A DNA stretch of 64,000 nucleotides from an uncultured Acidimicrobiaceae bacterium (GTDB lineage Bacteria > Actinomycetota > Acidimicrobiia > Acidimicrobiales > RAAP-2): positions 189,665 to 253,664 of the forward strand of contig CAWEKO010000002.1 of the NCBI GenBank assembly GCA_963809715.1, read 5' to 3'. Shown in pieces: positions 33,471 through 40,678 of this stretch; within the stretch, counting starts at the first letter, position 1, and every line of letters starts with the position of its first letter. The notes beneath the pieces are model-generated. The model made no database searches and was not told the origin of the DNA. It was given only the letters and a program-made list of their open reading frames with translations. The position numbers and the translations under genes are program-made.

Positions 33471-34067
33471 CTATCGACGGCGCGACGAGGTGTTGAGAGC
33501 GATTGCGTCCCGAAGTAAGGCGCCCAATGCCTTTTGGTTGATTTGATCGCCTTTGTGTATGTCAATGGCACGTCTGACATTGCCGTCAAGGCTGGAGTTG
33601 AAGAGGCCGGCTGGATCCGTAAGGGAGGCTCCTTTCGCAAAGGTGAGTTTCACCACGCTCTTATAGGTCTCACCAGTGCAGATGATTCCGTCGTGCGACC
33701 AAACAGGAGTCCCTCTCCACTTCCACTCCTCGACCGCCTCGGGATCAACTTGCTTAATGAGAGAGCGGATCCGAGAGAGCGTCTCGCCTCGCCAATCTCC
33801 GAGCTCGCTGATCCTGGAATCGATCAGCTGTGACGCACTCCCGCCTTGCTGGGCGGCCGGTACCCGCTTGGCGGCCTTCTTGGCCGGTACCCGCTTGGCG
33901 GCCTTCTTGGCCGGTACCCGCTTGGCGGCCTTCTTGGCCGGTACCCGCTTGGCGGCCTTCTTGGCCGGTACCCGCTTGGCGGCCTTCTTGGCCGGTACCC
34001 GCTTGGCGGCCTTCTTGGCCGGTACCCGCTTGGCGGCCTTCTTGGCCGGTACCCGCTTGCTCGCCAT
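33471..34067 (-). CDS. DUF1801 (YdhG-like) domain protein with N-terminal (KRVPAKKAA)7 basic repeat tail
   Basis: GAAAGAGGTG RBS before ATG 34067. LGDWRGETLSRIRSLIKQVDPEAVEEWKWRGTPVW...VKLTFAKGASLTDP is the DUF1801 pattern. Confidence 0.8.
   Translation of the reverse strand: MASKRVPAKKAAKRVPAKKAAKRVPAKKAAKRVPAKKAAKRVPAKKAAKRVPAKKAAKRVPAKKAAKRVPAAQQGGSASQLIDSRISELGDWRGETLSRIRSLIKQVDPEAVEEWKWRGTPVWSHDGIICTGETYKSVVKLTFAKGASLTDPAGLFNSSLDGNVRRAIDIHKGDQINQKALGALLRDAIALNTSSRRR
33855..34059 (-). repeat. perfect 27-bp tandem repeat, 7 full copies plus a 16-nt partial copy
   Basis: GGCCGGTACCCGCTTGGCGGCCTTCTT recurs at exact 27-nt spacing from 33855. I saw no mismatch between the full copies. Confidence 0.95.
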
Positions 34068-34176
34068 CTGCACCTCTTTCTCAAGTGAGACCGTTGACAA
34101 CGACTGATTCAAGTATCTCAGCCGTGCCACTGCTTGAGCAGTAATACGGATGACCGTCGGTCGTCTGCGAAGGTCT

Positions 34177-34467
34177 CTAAGGGGCTCTCCCAGCGATGTG
34201 GGTGCAGCTTTGCTGCAGGGGTCCTCGAACTCTTTCGCCGTTCGATGACTGAGCCTCGCACTGACGTTGCAAACCTTTGGGGGCGTGCGTGTCCGAGCAC
34301 ACGGAAGAATGGGGCCGTCTACGACAGGAATAGCCAACACCGATGGCGACGACGAGGAGCCCGAGAGGTTCGTTCGCTACGACGTGAAAGCGCTTTGGCC
34401 ACCACAGGGCCACAGCCGTCGCCACGATGATGATGAAGATGACGCGGGTGGGAAATTGCCATTCCAC
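34177..34467 (-). CDS. possible small membrane protein
   Basis: VEWQFPTRVIFIIIVATAVALWWPKRFHVVANEPLGLLVVAIGVGY gives two hydrophobic helices with good GC3. The C-terminal half has poor codon usage, and no clear RBS is present. Confidence 0.3.
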   Translation of the reverse strand: MEWQFPTRVIFIIIVATAVALWWPKRFHVVANEPLGLLVVAIGVGYSCRRRPHSSVCSDTHAPKGLQRQCEAQSSNGERVRGPLQQSCTHIAGRAP

Positions 34468-35199: not shown

Positions 35200-35883
35200 G
35201 TGGTACACATTCTCGGGCCTCTGAGCCACGCGACAATTGTCGGCGCGAGCTTCGAGCACTTCTTGGGCCAGTGGGGCTATGCCGGAATCTTCGTGCTGAG
35301 CTTCATCTCGGCCATGGGACTCCCGGTCGGGGCCGAGGTGGCAGTGATCTACGGCGGTGTCCTGGCCAGCGGTCAGATCCCGGGCGAGAAGCCACTCAAT
35401 GTCGTCGCCGTGATCGCGGTGGCCCTCGTCGCTGAACTGCTCGGCGCCATCGCCGGCTACTCGATCGGTAAGTTCGGCGGGAGACCACTGGTCGACCGCT
35501 TCGGCAAGTACCTCCTGCTCACCCACAAGGATCTCGATCGGGCCGAGGCCTGGTTCGCTCGGCGTGGCGAACCCTTCGCTCTCTTCGGGCGTTTCATCCC
35601 CCTGCTGCGCTCCTTCGTGTCCTTCGCCTGCGGGCTCGGCGAGATGGCGTTCGGCAAATTCATGCTCTTCACGTTCATCGGTACGGCCCTCTGGACCACC
35701 GGCCAGGCCTTCTTGGGCTACAGCCTCGGATCCAGCTACGAGCACGTCCTCAAGGCCTTCAGCAACGCGGGGTACGTGGTGGGAGTCCTCCTCGTTCTCG
35801 TGGTGATCGCCGGCCTCGTCTACCGCTTTCGGGAGTACCGCAAGCAGACAGCCGAGCGCGCATCCGGGCCCGGGAGTCGATGA
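35200..35883 (+). CDS. DedA family membrane protein
   Basis: GYAGIFVLSFISAMGLPVGAEV, GKFGGRPLVDRFGKY and FGRFIPLLRSFVSFACG motifs. Confidence 0.88.
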   Translation: MVHILGPLSHATIVGASFEHFLGQWGYAGIFVLSFISAMGLPVGAEVAVIYGGVLASGQIPGEKPLNVVAVIAVALVAELLGAIAGYSIGKFGGRPLVDRFGKYLLLTHKDLDRAEAWFARRGEPFALFGRFIPLLRSFVSFACGLGEMAFGKFMLFTFIGTALWTTGQAFLGYSLGSSYEHVLKAFSNAGYVVGVLLVLVVIAGLVYRFREYRKQTAERASGPGSR

Positions 35884-36178
35884 CACGACGCTCCACCCCG
35901 GCAGTCCGGGCTCCATGACCGCGGCGCTGGCCCGGCGCGGAACCCTGGTCGAGGCCAAGTGGAGACCCCAGGATCCGGGCCGGCGGCGGCGCGGGGCCGC
36001 AAATCCAACTCACCTGCAACCGGAATGCGACTGAGCGCAGCAAAGACCTGGTCAGCGTGAAATGAGGACAGGAATTTCAGCCCGAAAAAGGCCAAATGGC
36101 TCGGAAGACGAACCAGGCACATTGATCAAGAATTGCCCCGGTGATACCTTGCCCCGAACGATCGGGGGGAGGGGCGCT

Positions 36179-37828
36179 ATGGCAATGCTGCGCGGCACAA
36201 CTCGATCTTCACACCGTGGACGCGGGGTCCGGTGGGGTGCGACCCTGACCGGTGCGGTCGCACTGGTTTTTCCGCTCTTGGTCCTGCAGGGGTCGTCTCC
36301 GGCCGGGGCTGGGTCCGCCGGCGACACCACCGCCGAGTACATCGTCTCGTCGTCGTCGGGGATGTTGTCCTCGGACTCGCTCTCATCGGTGACGAGTGCC
36401 GTGGCCGGTGTCGACCCGACGGTCAACTCCGATCTTTCGCCCGTGGACGCCGCCACGGCCCAACTCGACCCGTCTCAGGTGACGTCGGTCGCCGCCGTGC
36501 CCGACGTGGTCGTCACCCCGAACGTTCCGGTGAAGGTCCAGGACACCGTCGGCGATCCGGGACGGGCGCCGGCGGCGGTCTTCCCCCAGCAGACCGGGGC
36601 GTCGCAGATCTGGGCCCAGGGCGACACCGGGCAGGGCGTCAACGTGGCCGTGCTCGACACGGGCATCTCGCCGTTGCCGGACTTCGCCGGGCGCATGGTC
36701 GACGGCGTCGACCTGACCGGCCACTCCAACCCCTGGAAGGATCAATACGGTCACGGCACGTTCGTGGCGGGCCTCATCGCCGGTGACGGGGCGTCCTCGA
36801 ACGGTCAGTACATGGGAGAAGCCCCCGGAGCCGGCCTCGTCTCGGTCAAAGTGGCGGGGGCGACCGGGAAGACCAACCTCCTCTCGGTGATCGAGGGTGT
36901 CGGGTGGACCATCGCCCATGCGGCGAAGGACAACATCGGGGTCCTCAACATGTCGTTGGGCTACCTCCCGCTCACCTCGACCGTCCTCGATCCGCTCGAC
37001 CAGGCGGTCGAGAAGGCCTGGGAGGCCGGCATCACGGTCGTGGTGTCCGCCGGCAACTCGGGCCCGGGCAACGGGACGATCCTCGCCCCGGGTGACGACC
37101 CCTTGGTCATCACCGCGGGGGCCGTCGACGACGGGGGGCAGGCGACCTCGGCCGACGACACCATGACGACCTTCAGCAGCGCCGGCCCGACCAACCCCGA
37201 CGGCTGGTTCAAGCCCGACCTGGTGACGTCGGGCCGATCGGTCGTGAGCCTGCGCGACCCGGGTTCCACCATCGACGTGCAGAACCCGTCCGCCAGCGTC
37301 GGCAGTGCGAACTTCGTCGGCTCGGGCACCTCCTTCAGCTCGGCCATCACGGCCGGCGCCGCCGCCCTGCTGCTCTCGGCCGACCCCGGCTACGACCCCG
37401 ACACCGTGAAGGGCACGCTGCTCGGCACGACCGATCCGGGCCCGGTAGGCAACCCGTTCGTGGACGGGCACGGCGACCTCGACGTGGCCAGCGCGGTCGC
37501 GTCCCCGGCCATGACCTTGTCCCAGTCGCCGCCGACCCAGGCCACCGCCATGGGCGGCGACGTCTCGCTCGCCGTGAGCGGGGAGTCCTCATCGTGGAAC
37601 CCGGCCAACTGGACCGGGTCGGCCTGGAACGGTTCGGCCTGGAACGGGTCCGCCTGGAACGGATCGGCCTGGAACGGATCCGCCTGGAACGGATCGGCCT
37701 GGAACGGATCGGCCTGGAACGGGTCGACCTGGAGCGGGTCGGCCTGGAACGGTTCCGCCTGGAACGGGTCCGCCTGGAACGGGTCCGCCTGGAACGGGTC
37801 GGCCTGGAACGGGTCCGCCTGGAACTGA
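36179..37828 (+). CDS. secreted S8 (subtilisin-like) serine peptidase with C-terminal (GSAWN)14 tail
   Basis: Signal peptide after ATG 36179 (GGGGGAGGGG RBS). Catalytic triad contexts VAVLDTGI, HGTFVAG and GTSFSSAITAG. Confidence 0.9.
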   Translation: MAMLRGTTRSSHRGRGVRWGATLTGAVALVFPLLVLQGSSPAGAGSAGDTTAEYIVSSSSGMLSSDSLSSVTSAVAGVDPTVNSDLSPVDAATAQLDPSQVTSVAAVPDVVVTPNVPVKVQDTVGDPGRAPAAVFPQQTGASQIWAQGDTGQGVNVAVLDTGISPLPDFAGRMVDGVDLTGHSNPWKDQYGHGTFVAGLIAGDGASSNGQYMGEAPGAGLVSVKVAGATGKTNLLSVIEGVGWTIAHAAKDNIGVLNMSLGYLPLTSTVLDPLDQAVEKAWEAGITVVVSAGNSGPGNGTILAPGDDPLVITAGAVDDGGQATSADDTMTTFSSAGPTNPDGWFKPDLVTSGRSVVSLRDPGSTIDVQNPSASVGSANFVGSGTSFSSAITAGAAALLLSADPGYDPDTVKGTLLGTTDPGPVGNPFVDGHGDLDVASAVASPAMTLSQSPPTQATAMGGDVSLAVSGESSSWNPANWTGSAWNGSAWNGSAWNGSAWNGSAWNGSAWNGSAWNGSTWSGSAWNGSAWNGSAWNGSAWNGSAWNGSAWN

Positions 37829-37840
37829 TCGGTCTGGAAC
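37616..37840 (+). repeat. 15-bp tandem repeat, 15 units (14 coding plus 1 after the stop)
   Basis: Units GG(N)TC(N)GCCTGGAAC encode GSAWN, with one GSTWS variant. Units differ mainly at synonymous positions. TGA at 37826 replaces a GGA Gly codon, and the next unit, TGA TCG GTC TGG AAC, still follows the periodicity. Confidence 0.95.
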
Positions 37841-37952
37841 GGATCGCGCAGGCCTCGATCAGGACACCCGCCGACAGGATTCGCACGATCGCCACGGAGA
37901 CGGCAGGCACCATGGACACCGAAGTCTCTTGAAACTTCCGAAGACATCGCGG

Positions 37953-40678
37953 ATGGTCATCGCGGCCTGGGCCGTGGCCGGGCTGGTCGCGTTCGGCATC
38001 GGGCTGGACCGGACCCTGGCCGGCGGTTGGCCCGGGTCCACGGCGATCTGGTTCAGTGCGGTCTTCGGCGTGCTCATGGCAGTCAGCTGGATCTGGCCCA
38101 TCACGCTCTACATCGGCGGCGAGTCGGACGCCATCGACTTCGACGAGGGGTTCCTCGTCCTGTTCCTCCTCCTCGTCCCGGCGTCCATGTCCGTGCTGGT
38201 GTTCGCGGCGGTGACCGTCGCGGCCCAGGCCATCAAGCGACGGCCCTTTGCCAAGTCGATCTTCAACGTGGGCCAGGTCGTGACCTCGGCCGGCGTGGGT
38301 GCCGTGGCCTTCGTGCTCCTCCAAGGATCCACCGACACGGTCGGCTACGCCAAGGTCGGTGCGGCCATCGTCGGCGCGCTCTGCTACTTCGTCGTGAACA
38401 CCGGGTCCATGGTGACGATCATGGTCACGCTGGGGACACCGTGGCGCAAGGTGGTGTTCGCCGGCATCGAGGGCAAACTCCTCATCGCCGCGGGCGGCAT
38501 CTGTATCGCCATCCCGGCCGGATTGCTGCTGGCCCAGCATCCCCGCTACCTGCTCGTCGCCCTGCTGCCGGCCATCATCTTGCGCTTCGTGGGCGCGGGC
38601 CACTTCTACGCCCGGCACGACCGGGCCCGCCTGCACGGGCTCTTCGAGGCCACGCTCGATGTCAACCGCAGCATGGGGATCGACGAGACCAAGGCGGCCG
38701 TGCTCAACGCGGCGTCCAGCCTGCTCCGCTCGCCCGACGCCTCGCTGGGTGTCACCGAGCCCGGCGATGACGAGCTGGCCGCCCCGATGGCCGTGGGGGA
38801 CGAGACCCTGTGGCTCCGCGTGGCCGGGCGCAGCCAGACCGAGCCCTTCGACGACGCCGACCAGACCCTGGTCGAGGCGCTGGCCTCGGTGGGTTCCGTC
38901 GCACTGGCCAACACGAGCCTCTACGCCGAGGTGCAGCAGCAGAAGGACAAGCTCTCGATCATCACGAGCAGCCTCGGCGAGGGCGTGTGCGCCATCAGCG
39001 AGACCGGAGAGATCAGCTTCTTGAACCCGGCCGGTGCCAGCATGCTGGGCTGGTACACCGTCGGCGCCGGTGAGGACGACGGCCCGATTCTGCCGGCCCA
39101 CGAGACGCCGCGCTTCCTCCTCGACCCGGCCATGCGGGCCATCGCGCTGCGGCGCAACGTCACCAGTTACGACACCCGATTCGACCGGCCCGACGGCTCG
39201 CACTTCCCCGTGACGATGACGGCCTCGCCCGTCGTCGGCGGCTCGGCGCCGTCGGGGGCGGTGATCGTGTTCCGCGACACCTCGGAGCGCAAGGCCTTCG
39301 AGGAACAGCTGGCCCGCCACGCCTTCCAGGACGCGCTGACCGGCCTGGCCAACCGGCGCCTCCTGCTCGACCACCTCGACCACGCGCTGCTTGCAGGCGG
39401 ACCGCAACGGCAGCCAGGTGGGGGTGCTGTTCTGCGACATCGACCGCTTCAAGGTGGTGAACGACAACCTGGGCCACCAGGTGGGCGACGAGCTCCTGCG
39501 GGTGATCGGCGAGCGCCTGCGTCGCGCCGTGCGGCCCGGCGACACGCTCTCGCGCTTCGGCGGGGACGAGTTCGTCATCCTGCTCGAGGGCATCATGTCG
39601 CCCGACGACGCCAGCGACGTGGCCAACTCGGTCCTCGGCGCACTGCACGACCCGATCGTGCTCAGCGCCGGCCACGAGGTCGTGACGACGATGAGCATCG
39701 GCATCGCGCTGAGCGAGTACGGCAAGTCGCGCGACGACCTGCTCCACGACGCGGACGTGGCCATGTATCGAGCCAAGGACCGGGGTCGGGGCGGACAGGT
39801 CGCCATGTTCGACGTGGCCCGCATGGGCGGCCGTTCGGCCGGCCGCCTCGATCTGGACACCGCGTTGCACCACGTGGTCGAGCGGGGCGAGGTCGAGATC
39901 CACTACCAGCCGCTGGTCTCGCTCGACGGACCGGCGCATCCTCGGGGCCGAGGCGTTGGTGCGCTGGAACCACCCCGACCACGGGATGCTCCTGCCCTCC
40001 CAGTTCATTCAGCTGGCCGAGGACAACGGCACCATCCTGCCCATCGGACATCTCGTCCTGGAGCAGGCCTGCCGCCAGATGAGGGAATGGTCGCAGCGGT
40101 TCGGGACCCGACTGCAGATCGGGGTCAACCTCTCCGCCCGCCAGTTCCAGCAGGTGAGCTTGGCCGACGACATCGCGGAGGTGCTGCGGACCACCGGGAT
40201 CGAGCCTTCACAGCTGTGCCTCGAGATCACCGAGAGTCTGGCCATGGACGACGTCGAGCTCACGACCAGCATTCTGAGCCGGCTGCACACCGTCGGGGTC
40301 CGCCTGGCCATCGACGACTTCGGCACGGGCCACTCCTCGCTCGGCTACCTGGCCCGGTTCCCGATCGACGTCGTCAAGATCGACCAGAGCTTCGTACGCG
40401 ACATCGACAAGGACCCGGTGAAGTCGGCCATCGTCTCCGCCGTGGTGGCGCTGTCCCAGGCCATCGACTCGACCACGGTGGTCGAAGGGGTGGAGACGGC
40501 GGCCCAACTCGAGGAGCTGCGGAAACTGGGATGCGACGTGGCCCAGGGCTTCTACTTCGCACGCCCGGTGTCGGCCGCCGCGTTCGAGCGGCTGCTGACG
40601 GCGAGTGCGAGCCCGAGCACCACGGCGGGCCCACCCGACCTGCGCGTCGTCCGGGGCGGGGAGGCCGCCGCCGGGTAG
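37953..40678 (+). pseudogene. membrane sensor / GAF-like / PAS / GGDEF / EAL c-di-GMP protein split by two +1 frameshifts
   Basis: Three consecutive frames carry the parts. The first has TM, PAS and ...AFQDALTGLANRRLLLDHLDHALL. The second has QADRNGSQVGVLFCDIDRFKVVND...RFGGDEFVIL...EIHYQPLVSLDG. The third has RRILGAEALVRWNHP...EITESL...DDFGTGHSSLGYL...KIDQSF...VEGVET. Shifts lie near 39388 and 39927. Confidence 0.8.

What the first reader, a model, noticed from the sequence alone, without database searches (positions are those of the whole stretch)
37616..37840. S8 protease ends in 14 GSAWN pentapeptide repeats, and the stop codon sits inside the repeat array
A 15-bp periodicity encodes GSAWN x7, GSTWS, then GSAWN x6 as the extreme C-terminus of a secreted subtilase. 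The units differ mostly at synonymous positions (GGT/GGG/GGA, TCG/TCC). This contrasts with the 27-bp repeat at 33.9 kb and suggests selection on the peptide rather than recent slippage. The TGA stop at 37826 occupies the position of a GGA Gly codon, and the following TCG GTC TGG AAC GGA TCG continues the repeat. The array was therefore probably longer and was truncated by a point mutation. A Trp/Asn-rich periodic tail could be a glycan or cell-wall-binding anchor, or a new kind of C-terminal sorting module.
Basis: partly seen in the sequence, partly recalled or inferred. Interest (0 to 1): 0.6.

Follow-up and report, generated by a model that had tools for sequence, protein, structure and literature searches.

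The report
Tryptophan-repeat tail on sensor-linked protease
A secreted bacterial protease ends in fourteen copies of a five-residue tryptophan unit; the tail is intact, strongly conserved in hundreds of relatives, undescribed in the literature, and its gene almost always travels with a membrane sensor gene, which hints at a protease-sensor pair.

Summary
ORF 36179-37828 (+) encodes an exported S8 subtilase of 549 aa. Its last 70 residues are GSAWN x7, GSTWS, GSAWN x6, followed by TGA and one decayed extra unit.

The tail is not a private oddity or a decaying array. 118 of the 120 closest homologs and 71 of 76 complete genome loci (Acidimicrobiales and other Actinomycetota MAGs) end in 6-34 G-x-x-W-N units and stop one residue after a Trp. 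In the array pN is 0.006-0.02 against pS 0.3-0.5, so it is the most constrained part of the protein.

The window's stop lies one unit upstream of the ancestral stop, or the last unit was duplicated together with its stop. Either way the effect is 5 residues or fewer.

The tail has no Pfam, NCBIfam, PDB or literature match, and AlphaFold gives no confident fold. The gene is almost always followed, on the same strand, by a MASE9-like membrane sensor (here PAS-GGDEF-EAL, frameshifted twice in this assembly).

Best reading, at low-to-moderate confidence: an uncharged, multivalent Trp strip holds the protease at the membrane surface beside that sensor. The main rival is a multi-copy peptide ligand source. 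This scan had already met the same undescribed family several times on other genomes.

The parts
36179..37828 (+). Gene for an exported S8 subtilase, 549 aa (an upstream in-frame ATG at 36062 would give 588 aa)
   Evidence: ORF list. Database gene call P0001 is 549 aa and 100% identical. GGAGG lies upstream of 36179. Pfam PF00082 at 3e-41.
36179..36319 (+). Probable Sec signal peptide (residues 1-47: Arg-rich n-region, hydrophobic ATLTGAVALVFPLLVL, then SSPAGA)
   Evidence: Read directly from the sequence. AlphaFold pLDDT is below 50 for residues 1-47. No signal-peptide predictor was available, so this is an inference.
36332..36535 (+). I9-like subtilase propeptide (residues 52-119, beta-alpha-beta-beta-alpha-beta)
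   Evidence: Secondary structure of the AlphaFold model, pLDDT 60-89. There was no Pfam hit, so the assignment rests on fold topology only.
36629..37471 (+). S8 catalytic domain. D160 is at 36656-58, H192 at 36752-54, N293 at 37055-57 and S385 at 37331-33.
   Evidence: Pfam. These columns are invariant in the alignment of 66 homologs. Coordinates. AlphaFold pLDDT is above 90. The nearest solved structures are 3afg and 9ues, at 1e-47.
37586..37615 (+). Conserved lead-in SSSWN PANWT: two degenerate units with W473 and W478 already in the 5-residue register
   Evidence: W473 and W478 are invariant in 66 homologs. The motif S.W[ND]...W is present in 113 of 120 homologs. The same lead-in occurs in the non-S8 protein P0122.
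37616..37825 (+). Array of 14 pentapeptide units: GSAWN x7, GSTWS, GSAWN x6
37826..37828 (+). TGA stop, in the place of the Gly codon of the next unit
   Evidence: It aligns with GGC/GGG in L009, L010, L021, L109 and L110.
37829..37843 (+). Untranslated remnant of one more unit (TCG GTC TGG AAC) plus the position of the ancestral stop (37841-43, now GGA)
   Evidence: Alignment A2 anchored on the unique downstream sequence and codon listing. L005 and L011 keep TGA there, after a 1-nt deletion.
37929..40678 (+). Conserved partner gene: a MASE9-like multi-TM domain, PAS, GGDEF and EAL. In this assembly it is broken into three frames (from 37929, 39391 and 39956) by two +1 insertions at about 39389 and 39926.
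   Evidence: ORFs. Intact 907-aa orthologs in L005 and L008. Pfam on the L005 ortholog. Indels located against L005. Present on the same strand in 74 of 80 related loci. No terminator-like site lies between the two genes.

Best explanation
What is shown. The tail is the native, intact C-terminal module of a large family of exported S8 subtilases. It has a Trp at every fifth residue, followed by a turn-prone [N/D/S/T]-Gly, and two freer positions. It is almost always uncharged, has 6-34 units, and ends one residue after the last Trp. It is held by strong purifying selection on every unit. The gene forms a conserved two-gene arrangement with a MASE9-like membrane sensor.

What is inferred. After Sec export and propeptide removal, the tail does not fold into a globular domain. 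It acts instead as a multivalent tryptophan strip. Its many indole rings partition into the membrane interface and/or stack on aromatic partners. This keeps the protease on the outer face of the cytoplasmic membrane, beside the sensor encoded downstream. The ligand of that sensor's MASE9 domain is thought to bind within the membrane. Protease and sensor would then work as one surface module coupled to c-di-GMP turnover. Unit number sets the strength of attachment. The stop codon 'inside' the array is a trivial lineage-specific shift of at most one unit.
For: - Family trait: 118 of 120 homologs and 71 of 76 complete loci end W-x. The unit profile is G 88%, S/T 82%, A/T/S 88%, W, N 92%. More distant S8 proteins use W[NDST]G with other fillers, such as WDGMS x28, WSGTQ x33 and WGGAH x29.
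- Selection: array pN is 0.006-0.023 against body pN 0.044-0.19, with pS 0.30-0.51. The odd unit stays at position 8 in relatives of 69-100% identity.
- No fold: pLDDT is 32-36 with a 66-sequence alignment and 51 (pTM 0.12) for the tail alone. No PDB sequence relative was found.
- Interface affinity: summed Wimley-White interfacial energy is -17.7 kcal/mol for this tail, the family median is -19, and 115 of 118 tails are favourable. Windows of 70 residues from the protein body score +5 to +21.
- Charge: 73 of 118 tails have net charge 0.
- Membrane-proximal use elsewhere: lipoproteins P0188 and P0240 carry the same units directly after the lipobox Cys.
- Partner: a homolog lies on the same strand in 74 of 80 loci, and the other six contigs end within 200 nt of the stop. 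No terminator lies between the genes. In divergent lineages the homologous membrane domain carries GGDEF or HisKA outputs.
- Literature: MASE9 ligand binding is inferred to occur inside the membrane (bioRxiv 10.1101/2021.11.05.467447). The Nanog WR, also uncharged with W every fifth residue, associates by Trp stacking in proportion to the number of Trp (PMC5446312).
Against: - There is no experimental datum on localisation.
- The interfacial energy scale was recalled from memory, and it assumes that every unit touches the bilayer.
- Three of 118 tails (Glu-rich units GEAWN, GESWN, SEAWN) score unfavourably.
- Simple membrane adhesion does not obviously require the near-perfect identity of units seen here, nor the strict 5-residue register.
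- Several divergent tailed S8 genes lack the sensor next to them (L117, L120, L121, and the tandem paralogs in G193).
- The MASE9 assignment is at threshold: 24.6 bits against a 24.3 cutoff in L005, and 24.0 and 16.5 bits or no hit in divergent loci.
- In this assembly the sensor gene is frameshifted twice. Either the pair is not needed here or the assembly is wrong.
- P0161 uses the repeat as an internal linker far from any membrane anchor.
Confidence: 0.38

Rival explanations
1. Multi-copy peptide source. The tail is cut, by the protease itself or by another protease, at every unit boundary into identical pentapeptides (or remains a tethered ligand). The neighbouring MASE9-like sensor perceives these, giving an autocrine or quorum-type input into c-di-GMP signalling.
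For: - Each unit is kept identical at the amino-acid level while synonymous sites diverge.
- The array always ends with a complete unit.
- Units differ between lineages but are largely uniform within a protein; the commonest unit has a mean share of 0.75.
- No fold is predicted.
- The enzyme in cis belongs to the family that, from established knowledge, releases Phr pentapeptides in Bacillus.
- The gene is tightly linked to a sensor with an unknown ligand.
- Earlier scan notes on other genomes report mini-proteins ending in the same unit.
Against: - No mini-protein carrying the unit exists anywhere in this 64-kb window.
- Many arrays mix units, for example GSHWN/GSTWN/GSAWN.
- The conserved degenerate lead-in and the long-lived odd unit at position 8 fit a structural module better.
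- The same repeat serves as an internal or N-terminal linker in lipoproteins and in a metalloprotease.
- MASE9 has only short, poorly conserved outside loops.
- No processing site separates the units.
- An earlier agent's later check lowered this reading.
Confidence: 0.2
2. Polymer-binding tail. The Trp ladder binds a polysaccharide or cell-wall glycan (peptidoglycan, a teichoic-like polymer, cellulose or chitin) or an insoluble protein substrate. It would take the place of the beta-jelly-roll, PPC or CBM domains of other secreted subtilases.
For: - Exposed Trp residues are the standard sugar-stacking residues (established knowledge of carbohydrate-binding modules).
- The tail occupies the position where related subtilases such as Tk-SP (3afg) carry an accessory C-terminal domain.
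- The tail is uncharged and rich in hydroxyl and amide groups.
- Copy number is variable, as in other multivalent binders.
Against: - There is no similarity to any CBM, GW, LysM, SLH or cell-wall-binding family in Pfam or NCBIfam.
- No fold is predicted that would present a flat aromatic face.
- This reading does not explain the linkage to the membrane sensor.
- No glycan-related gene is conserved nearby.
Confidence: 0.15
3. Passive spacer or low-complexity appendage. The tail is a flexible or semi-rigid extension without a specific partner, tolerated and resized by slippage.
For: - AlphaFold confidence is low.
- Unit number varies from 6 to 34.
- The repeat is used as a linker in P0161 and after the lipobox in P0188 and P0240.
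Against: - A spacer at the extreme C-terminus has nothing to space.
- Array dN/dS is about 0.02-0.06, the lowest in the protein.
- The Trp and Gly/Asn positions are invariant across hundreds of proteins.
- The ending W-x is conserved.
Confidence: 0.08
4. Divergent member of the pentapeptide-repeat (Rfr) family, forming a right-handed quadrilateral beta-helix.
For: The period is 5. In many units a large hydrophobic residue sits at the centre (W at i) with a small residue two positions before it (S at i-2).
Against: - None of the Pfam Pentapeptide models hits, even at E <= 1.
- The i-2 position can be W, R, K, E, Q or L in family members.
- There is no PDB sequence hit at E <= 10.
Confidence: 0.03

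Closest known systems
Nanog tryptophan repeat (WR) of mammals (PMC5446312, PMC3746198)
   Same: Trp at every fifth residue over ten or more units. No charged residues, with fillers rich in hydroxyl and amide groups. No classical fold. It works by aromatic stacking, with strength set by the number of Trp.
   Different: It is eukaryotic, nuclear and internal to a transcription factor, and it is not homologous. Its fillers differ and it lacks the conserved Gly. Here the repeat is extracellular and terminal on a protease, and self-association is untested.
Pentapeptide repeat proteins (Pfam PF00805/PF13599/PF13576; MfpA, Qnr, Rfr32)
   Same: A five-residue period with a central large hydrophobic residue.
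   Different: There is no HMM match. The inward-facing i-2 position is not restricted to small residues. No beta-helix is predicted. Units are near-identical, not degenerate.
Secreted subtilases with accessory C-terminal parts, e.g. Tk-SP of Thermococcus kodakarensis (PDB 3afg)
   Same: It has the closest solved catalytic domain (E 1.6e-47). The layout is also the same: signal peptide, propeptide, S8 domain and a C-terminal accessory part.
   Different: The accessory part there is a folded beta-jelly-roll domain. Here it is a simple Trp pentapeptide array with no predicted fold.
LapG protease / LapD c-di-GMP receptor of Pseudomonas
   Same: An extracytoplasmic protease is encoded next to a membrane GGDEF-EAL protein, so proteolysis at the cell surface is coupled to c-di-GMP.
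   Different: LapG is a cysteine protease and LapD has degenerate, non-catalytic GGDEF and EAL domains plus a periplasmic output domain. Here the protease is S8, the GGDEF (with I-site) and EAL motifs are intact, and the sensor part is a polytopic MASE9-like domain. In other lineages the output is a histidine kinase.
Phr/CSF pentapeptide signals of Bacillus, released by subtilisin, Epr and Vpr
   Same: Extracellular pentapeptides that are released by S8 proteases from the C-terminus of an exported precursor.
   Different: Phr precursors are small separate proteins with one peptide each, and they are sensed inside the cell after Opp import. Here the units are fused 14-fold to the protease itself. 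No mini-precursor exists in the window, and release is unproven.
C-terminal sorting signals (LPXTG/sortase, PEP-CTERM, GlyGly-CTERM, T9SS CTD)
   Same: They sit at the extreme C-terminus of secreted proteins.
   Different: All of these combine a short motif with a transmembrane helix or a folded domain. The tail here has no hydrophobic helix, no basic end and none of these motifs.

Membership tests
Subtilase, MEROPS/Pfam S8 | Match to the Peptidase_S8 profile above the curated cut-off | tested here: met
   PF00082, 142 bits against a cutoff of 21.8, E 3e-41.
Subtilase, MEROPS/Pfam S8 | Catalytic triad Asp-His-Ser in the order D, H, S, plus the oxyanion Asn | tested here: met
   D160 (VLDTG), H192 (GHGT), N293 and S385 (GTSFS). 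D, H and S are invariant in 66 homologs.
Type VII secretion mycosin (TIGR03921) | Score above the equivalog cut-off, and a C-terminal membrane anchor | tested here: not met
   139 bits against a cutoff of 278.75. The sequence has no C-terminal hydrophobic helix.
Pentapeptide repeat proteins (Rfr fold) | Match to a Pfam Pentapeptide model | tested here: not met
   No such family appears at E <= 1.
Pentapeptide repeat proteins (Rfr fold) | Small residue at i-2 and Leu/Phe at i, both facing the helix interior | tested here: not met
   W occupies position i. Position i-2 is S in this protein, but W, R, K, E, Q or L in family members.
Pentapeptide repeat proteins (Rfr fold) | Right-handed quadrilateral beta-helix | tested here: inconclusive
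   AlphaFold predicts no regular structure, with pLDDT 32-51. A prediction cannot exclude a fold.
Known C-terminal sorting signals (sortase LPXTG, PEP-CTERM, GlyGly-CTERM, T9SS CTD) | Signature motif followed by a transmembrane helix and basic tail, or a folded CTD | tested here: not met
   The last 80 residues contain only G, S, A, W, N, T and P. There are no Pfam or NCBIfam hits in the tail.
RTX / T1SS beta-roll repeats | Nonapeptide GGxGxDxUx repeats | tested here: not met
   The period is 5, not 9, and the units have no Asp.
MASE9 membrane sensor domain (partner gene) | Match to PF20972 at the gathering score | tested here: inconclusive
   The ortholog in L005 scores 24.6 bits against 24.3, so it just passes. 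L049 scores 17.6, and divergent partners score 24.0, 16.5 or nothing. The window's own copy is frameshifted.
LapD/LapG-type inside-out protease control | Degenerate GGDEF and EAL domains acting as a c-di-GMP receptor, with a cysteine protease partner | tested here: not met
   GGDEF with an RxxD I-site, EAL and DDFGTG motifs are intact in the L005 ortholog (sequence). The LapD equivalog scores 172 bits against 1020. The protease is S8.
Phr-type exported pentapeptide precursors | Small separate exported precursor ending in the signalling pentapeptide | tested here: not met
   No ORF in any frame of the 64-kb window, other than the protease itself, carries two or more units or ends in the unit.
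Trp-pentad-tailed subtilases (undescribed family, seen repeatedly in this scan) | S8 domain followed by at least 6 units with W every fifth residue, ending one residue after a Trp | tested here: met
   14 units plus 2 lead-in units, ending WN. The feature is shared by 118 of 120 homologs.
Trp-pentad-tailed subtilases (undescribed family, seen repeatedly in this scan) | Membrane sensor gene immediately downstream on the same strand | tested here: met
   The gene starts at 37929, 100 nt after the stop. The arrangement is conserved in 74 of 80 loci. The copy in this assembly is broken by two frameshifts.

The most novel reading that the evidence does not exclude
The tryptophan pentapeptide tail is itself the signal for the orphan MASE9-type sensor. 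The protease carries a multi-copy, lineage-specific ligand. That ligand is either released as pentapeptides or inserted into the membrane as a tethered ligand. The sensor reads it and converts it into c-di-GMP or two-component signalling. This would be a self-contained extracellular protease-ligand-receptor module of a kind not yet described in bacteria.
Probability: 0.2. Interest if true: 0.85.

Novelty: new variant of a known kind. Interest (0 to 1): 0.55.

Why it matters
Subtilases are among the best-studied enzymes, yet this large subfamily carries a strongly selected tail that no domain database, solved structure or paper in the searched library describes. There are hundreds of members in uncultured soil Actinomycetota and at least one in Ilumatobacter. 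Its near-obligatory linkage to a MASE9-like membrane sensor gives a concrete, testable lead to the ligand or partner of an orphan sensor domain. It also gives a lead to how these abundant but uncultured bacteria couple extracellular proteolysis to c-di-GMP signalling. As a material, an uncharged strip with a Trp at every fifth residue is a natural counterpart of the Nanog WR, and it may show how such repeats adhere. For this window specifically, the 'stop inside the array' turns out to be a one-unit, functionally trivial event.

Tried and rejected
- **Other carriers in the same genome:** none. The weak hits are chance.
- **Other carriers in 80 genomes of the same family:** only the orthologous protease in G010 and G054. 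All other hits are alternative frames of unrelated 15-bp repeats. Three genus-mates lack the protease altogether.
- **Tail-only search of 1.84 billion representatives:** 4095 hits. Among the best 150, about 34 are S8. Most of the rest are junk ORFs on satellite DNA (WNGME, WCGVV, WYGMV, WHGMA). Only P0122, P0188, P0240 and P0161 look like genuine non-S8 carriers.
- **Structure:** two AlphaFold runs gave no confident fold, so no fold search was made. There is no PDB sequence relative.
- **Known families:** Rfr pentapeptide, RTX, sorting-signal and mycosin memberships were all rejected.
- **RiPP-like precursor:** no modifying enzyme is conserved nearby. The only conserved neighbour is the sensor.
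- **Mini-proteins ending in the unit (a lead from earlier scan notes):** none in this window.
- **Central 'punctuation' unit as a sign of a hairpin:** present in only 41 of 113 arrays, so it is not a family feature.
- **Literature strings:** no paper contains the repeat strings, and keyword searches found nothing relevant.
- **P0122 contig:** it was sought to test whether a non-S8 carrier also precedes a sensor, but it was not found in metagenome contigs.
Full report
**1. The observation.** The window holds an ORF at 36062..37828 (+). The database gene call is 549 aa (P0001, 100% identical). That corresponds to a start at ATG 36179, which is preceded by a GGAGG-like motif. Pfam assigns residues 151-431 to Peptidase_S8 at 3e-41. 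D160, H192 and S385 are invariant in an alignment of 66 homologs. The protein ends SSSWN PANWT (GSAWN)x7 GSTWS (GSAWN)x6, then TGA at 37826, followed by TCG GTC TGG AAC GGA TCG. Tandem Repeats Finder reports 15.9 copies of a 15-nt unit at 89% identity. Within the array only the third positions of the Gly and Ser codons vary, apart from two non-synonymous changes in unit 8. Within-array pS is 0.343 and pN is 0.024.

**2. The tail is a family trait.** A search of 5.8 billion proteins returned 3650 relatives. Of the best 120, which are 58-100% identical, 118 end in a run of units with Trp in the fourth place and stop one residue after the last Trp. The position profile is G 88%, S/T 82%, A/T/S 88%, W, N 92%. 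Arrays have 6-30 units with a median of 18. The lead-in S.W[ND]...W is present in 113 of 120. In 80 loci from species-representative genomes, labelled Acidimicrobiaceae, Acidimicrobiales, Actinomycetota or Streptosporangiaceae MAGs, 71 of 76 complete genes end W-x (52 WN, 12 WS). The stop is TGA in 66 of them. More distant S8 proteins of the class carry the same design with other fillers: WDGMS x28 in an Ilumatobacter protein (WP_420453459.1), and also WGGAH x29, WSGTQ x33, WSGST x18 and WSGQA x25. The constant core is W-[N/D/S/T]-G. Those four residues before Gly are the classical turn and Asx/ST-turn formers, so I infer one tight turn per unit.

**3. Selection.** Between the window and eight orthologs, the array has pN 0.006-0.023. 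The exception is 0.086 against G010, whose unit is GSTWN. Array pS is 0.30-0.51. The rest of the mature protein has pN 0.044-0.19 and pN/pS 0.25-0.39. The array is thus the most constrained segment of the protein. The odd unit (GSTWS, GSAWS or GSSWE) sits at position 8 in P0001, P0002, P0003, P0008, P0009, P0010 and P0033, which span 69-100% identity. Individual units are therefore orthologous and long-lived, not the product of recent slippage. The 27-bp repeat at 33855-34059, with 100% matches, is the opposite case.

**4. The stop codon.** When the sequences are anchored on the unique downstream DNA, the TGA of the 82-86% relatives (L009, L010, L021, L109, L110) aligns with the window's second junction. 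That junction is GGA at 37841-43 in the window. L005 and L011, the 91-92% relatives, still have TGA there after a 1-nt deletion. The window's own TGA aligns with GGC or GGG in the outgroups. There are two one-step histories:
- A GGA to TGA mutation one unit upstream of the old stop, starting from a 7+1+7 array as in P0010.
- A duplication of the last unit together with its stop, starting from a 7+1+6 array as in P0008, whose translated array equals the window's.

The data do not separate these histories. Either way at most five residues are involved, and the new end is again ...WN, the family's normal ending. The array is not decaying.

**5. What the tail is not.**
- No Pfam or NCBIfam model touches it, even at E <= 1.
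- No PDB chain resembles it at E <= 10.
- No paper in the library contains the repeat strings.
- AlphaFold models the propeptide and catalytic domain well (pLDDT 85-98). It gives the tail 32-36 with a 66-sequence alignment, and 51 (pTM 0.12, no secondary structure) when the tail is folded alone.
- The pentapeptide-repeat (Rfr) family is rejected on three counts: no HMM hit, a free i-2 position, and no predicted helix.
- Known C-terminal sorting signals are rejected because there is no motif, no hydrophobic helix and no basic end.
- The mycosin model scores half its cut-off.

**6. Other carriers.** The own genome has no second array. In 80 other genomes of the same GTDB family, only the orthologous protease carries one (G010, G054). 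Three of the four genus-mates sampled lack the protease altogether, so the gene is accessory and single-copy. A tail-only search of 1.84 billion representatives gave 4095 hits. Most non-S8 hits are spurious ORFs on satellite DNA. Four look genuine:
- P0122 has another N-terminal domain, then the same lead-in SSWNPANW and GSAWN x17, and ends WN.
- P0188 and P0240 have a lipobox, then 11-13 GxxWN units directly after it, then a shared Cys-rich domain.
- P0161 is a zinc metalloprotease with WNGVD x14 and a cadherin-like domain.

The module is therefore portable, and in two of these proteins it lies next to a lipid anchor.

**7. The conserved neighbour.** Clustering the flanking ORFs of the 80 loci showed only one widely shared neighbour. 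It is a roughly 900-aa membrane protein immediately downstream. A homolog lies on the same strand in 74 of 80 loci. It usually starts 30-280 nt after the protease stop. The six loci without it are contigs that end within 200 nt of the stop. The intact ortholog in L005 is MASE9 (24.6 bits against a 24.3 cutoff), PAS, GGDEF and EAL, with GGDEF, the RxxD I-site, EAL and DDFGTG all intact. No terminator-like site separates the two genes in the window. In divergent lineages the homologous multi-TM domain (22-27% identity, E 1e-7 to 1e-10) is joined to GAF plus GGDEF or HisKA. Some tailed S8 genes lack it (L117, L120, L121, and tandem paralogs). In this assembly the sensor gene carries two +1 insertions, at about 39389 and 39926, neither in a homopolymer. 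MASE9 was defined by Galperin and Chou. Its ligand is unknown, and binding was inferred to occur within the membrane (bioRxiv 10.1101/2021.11.05.467447).

**8. How it most likely works.** What is shown:
- The protease is exported.
- The tail is selected, uncharged and Trp-periodic, and no fold is predicted for it.
- There is a conserved protease-sensor gene pair.

What is inferred: the tail is a multivalent Trp strip that keeps the enzyme at the membrane surface near the sensor. The support is as follows:
- The summed interfacial partitioning energy (Wimley-White scale, values recalled from memory) is -17.7 kcal/mol for this tail. It is favourable for 115 of 118 tails, against +5 to +21 for 70-residue windows of the protein body.
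- The repeat sits membrane-proximal in two lipoproteins.
- MASE9 is inferred to sense within the membrane.
- The Nanog WR sets a precedent. It is an uncharged repeat with W at every fifth residue that associates by Trp stacking in proportion to Trp number (PMC5446312).

The weak points are these:
- Three tails are Glu-rich.
- Plain adhesion does not explain why units are kept so exactly identical.
- The MASE9 assignment is at threshold.
- Nothing has been tested experimentally.

The main rival is a multi-copy peptide ligand. It explains unit identity and the complete last unit. It is weakened by mixed arrays, by the conserved lead-in and odd unit, by linker-type uses elsewhere, and by the absence of the mini-proteins that earlier notes reported in other genomes. 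Glycan binding and a passive spacer remain possible.

**9. Relation to earlier scan findings.** Eight earlier notes describe the same family on other genomes, with units SSWNG, GTSWQ, SNAWD, AIKWS and others, and they report the same sensor linkage. I had found the linkage independently before reading them. I took two things from them and checked both: the mini-protein lead, which is not met here, and the Nanog WR comparison, for which I read the paper.

**10. Verdict.** The protease is an ordinary S8 enzyme. The tail is a genuine, undescribed, strongly selected module. The 'truncation' is trivial. The interesting part is the protease-sensor pairing, whose mechanism remains unproven.

Noticed in passing
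window 37929-40678: The MASE9-like PAS-GGDEF-EAL gene downstream of the protease is split into three frames by two single-base insertions (G at about 39389, A at about 39926) relative to the intact 907-aa ortholog in L005. Neither insertion lies in a homopolymer. The 86% relative L007 also has this gene split, into 547 + 102 aa. This is either a pseudogene or long-read assembly error.
   Followed up: partly
window 33855-34059 (- strand gene 33471-34340): A perfect 27-bp tandem repeat (7.6 copies, 100% identity) encodes (KRVPAKKAA)n in the N-terminal part of a DUF1801-family protein. It looks like a recently expanded Lys-rich, histone-like repeat, in contrast to the old 15-bp array.
   Followed up: no
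window 37390-37947 (-) and 37594-37932 (+): The other frames of the array give long ORFs: (ADPFQ)n on the minus strand and (GLERV)n in another plus frame. Database proteins P0043 and P0068 switch from GxxWN into the LERV frame. Frameshift errors in assembled arrays therefore create chimeric protein entries.
   Followed up: partly
P0188, P0240, P0161, P0122 (database proteins): The same GxxWN repeat occurs outside S8 proteases. It directly follows the lipobox of two lipoproteins that share a Cys-rich domain. It lies between a zinc metalloprotease domain and cadherin-like domains. It also occurs, with the identical SSWNPANW lead-in, on an unrelated 150-aa domain. Their genomic contexts could not be fetched.
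   Followed up: partly
position 8 of the array (window 37721-37735): The single odd unit (GSTWS) is kept at the same position in relatives down to 69% identity. 26 of 113 family arrays have exactly one interior odd unit, at a mean relative position of 0.49, often with Tyr or Leu and ending in Asp, Ser or Thr. The meaning is unknown.
   Followed up: partly
window 35200-35883 (+): A DedA/VTT-domain membrane protein lies upstream of the protease in the close relatives (L005, L007, L109, L110). It is not conserved in the wider set of loci.
   Followed up: partly
G193:C5:49674-54972 (loci L122, L139): One Acidimicrobiia genome has three tailed S8 paralogs in tandem (WSGST x18, ending LTWDHGKRIR), with no sensor gene detected downstream.
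   Followed up: no
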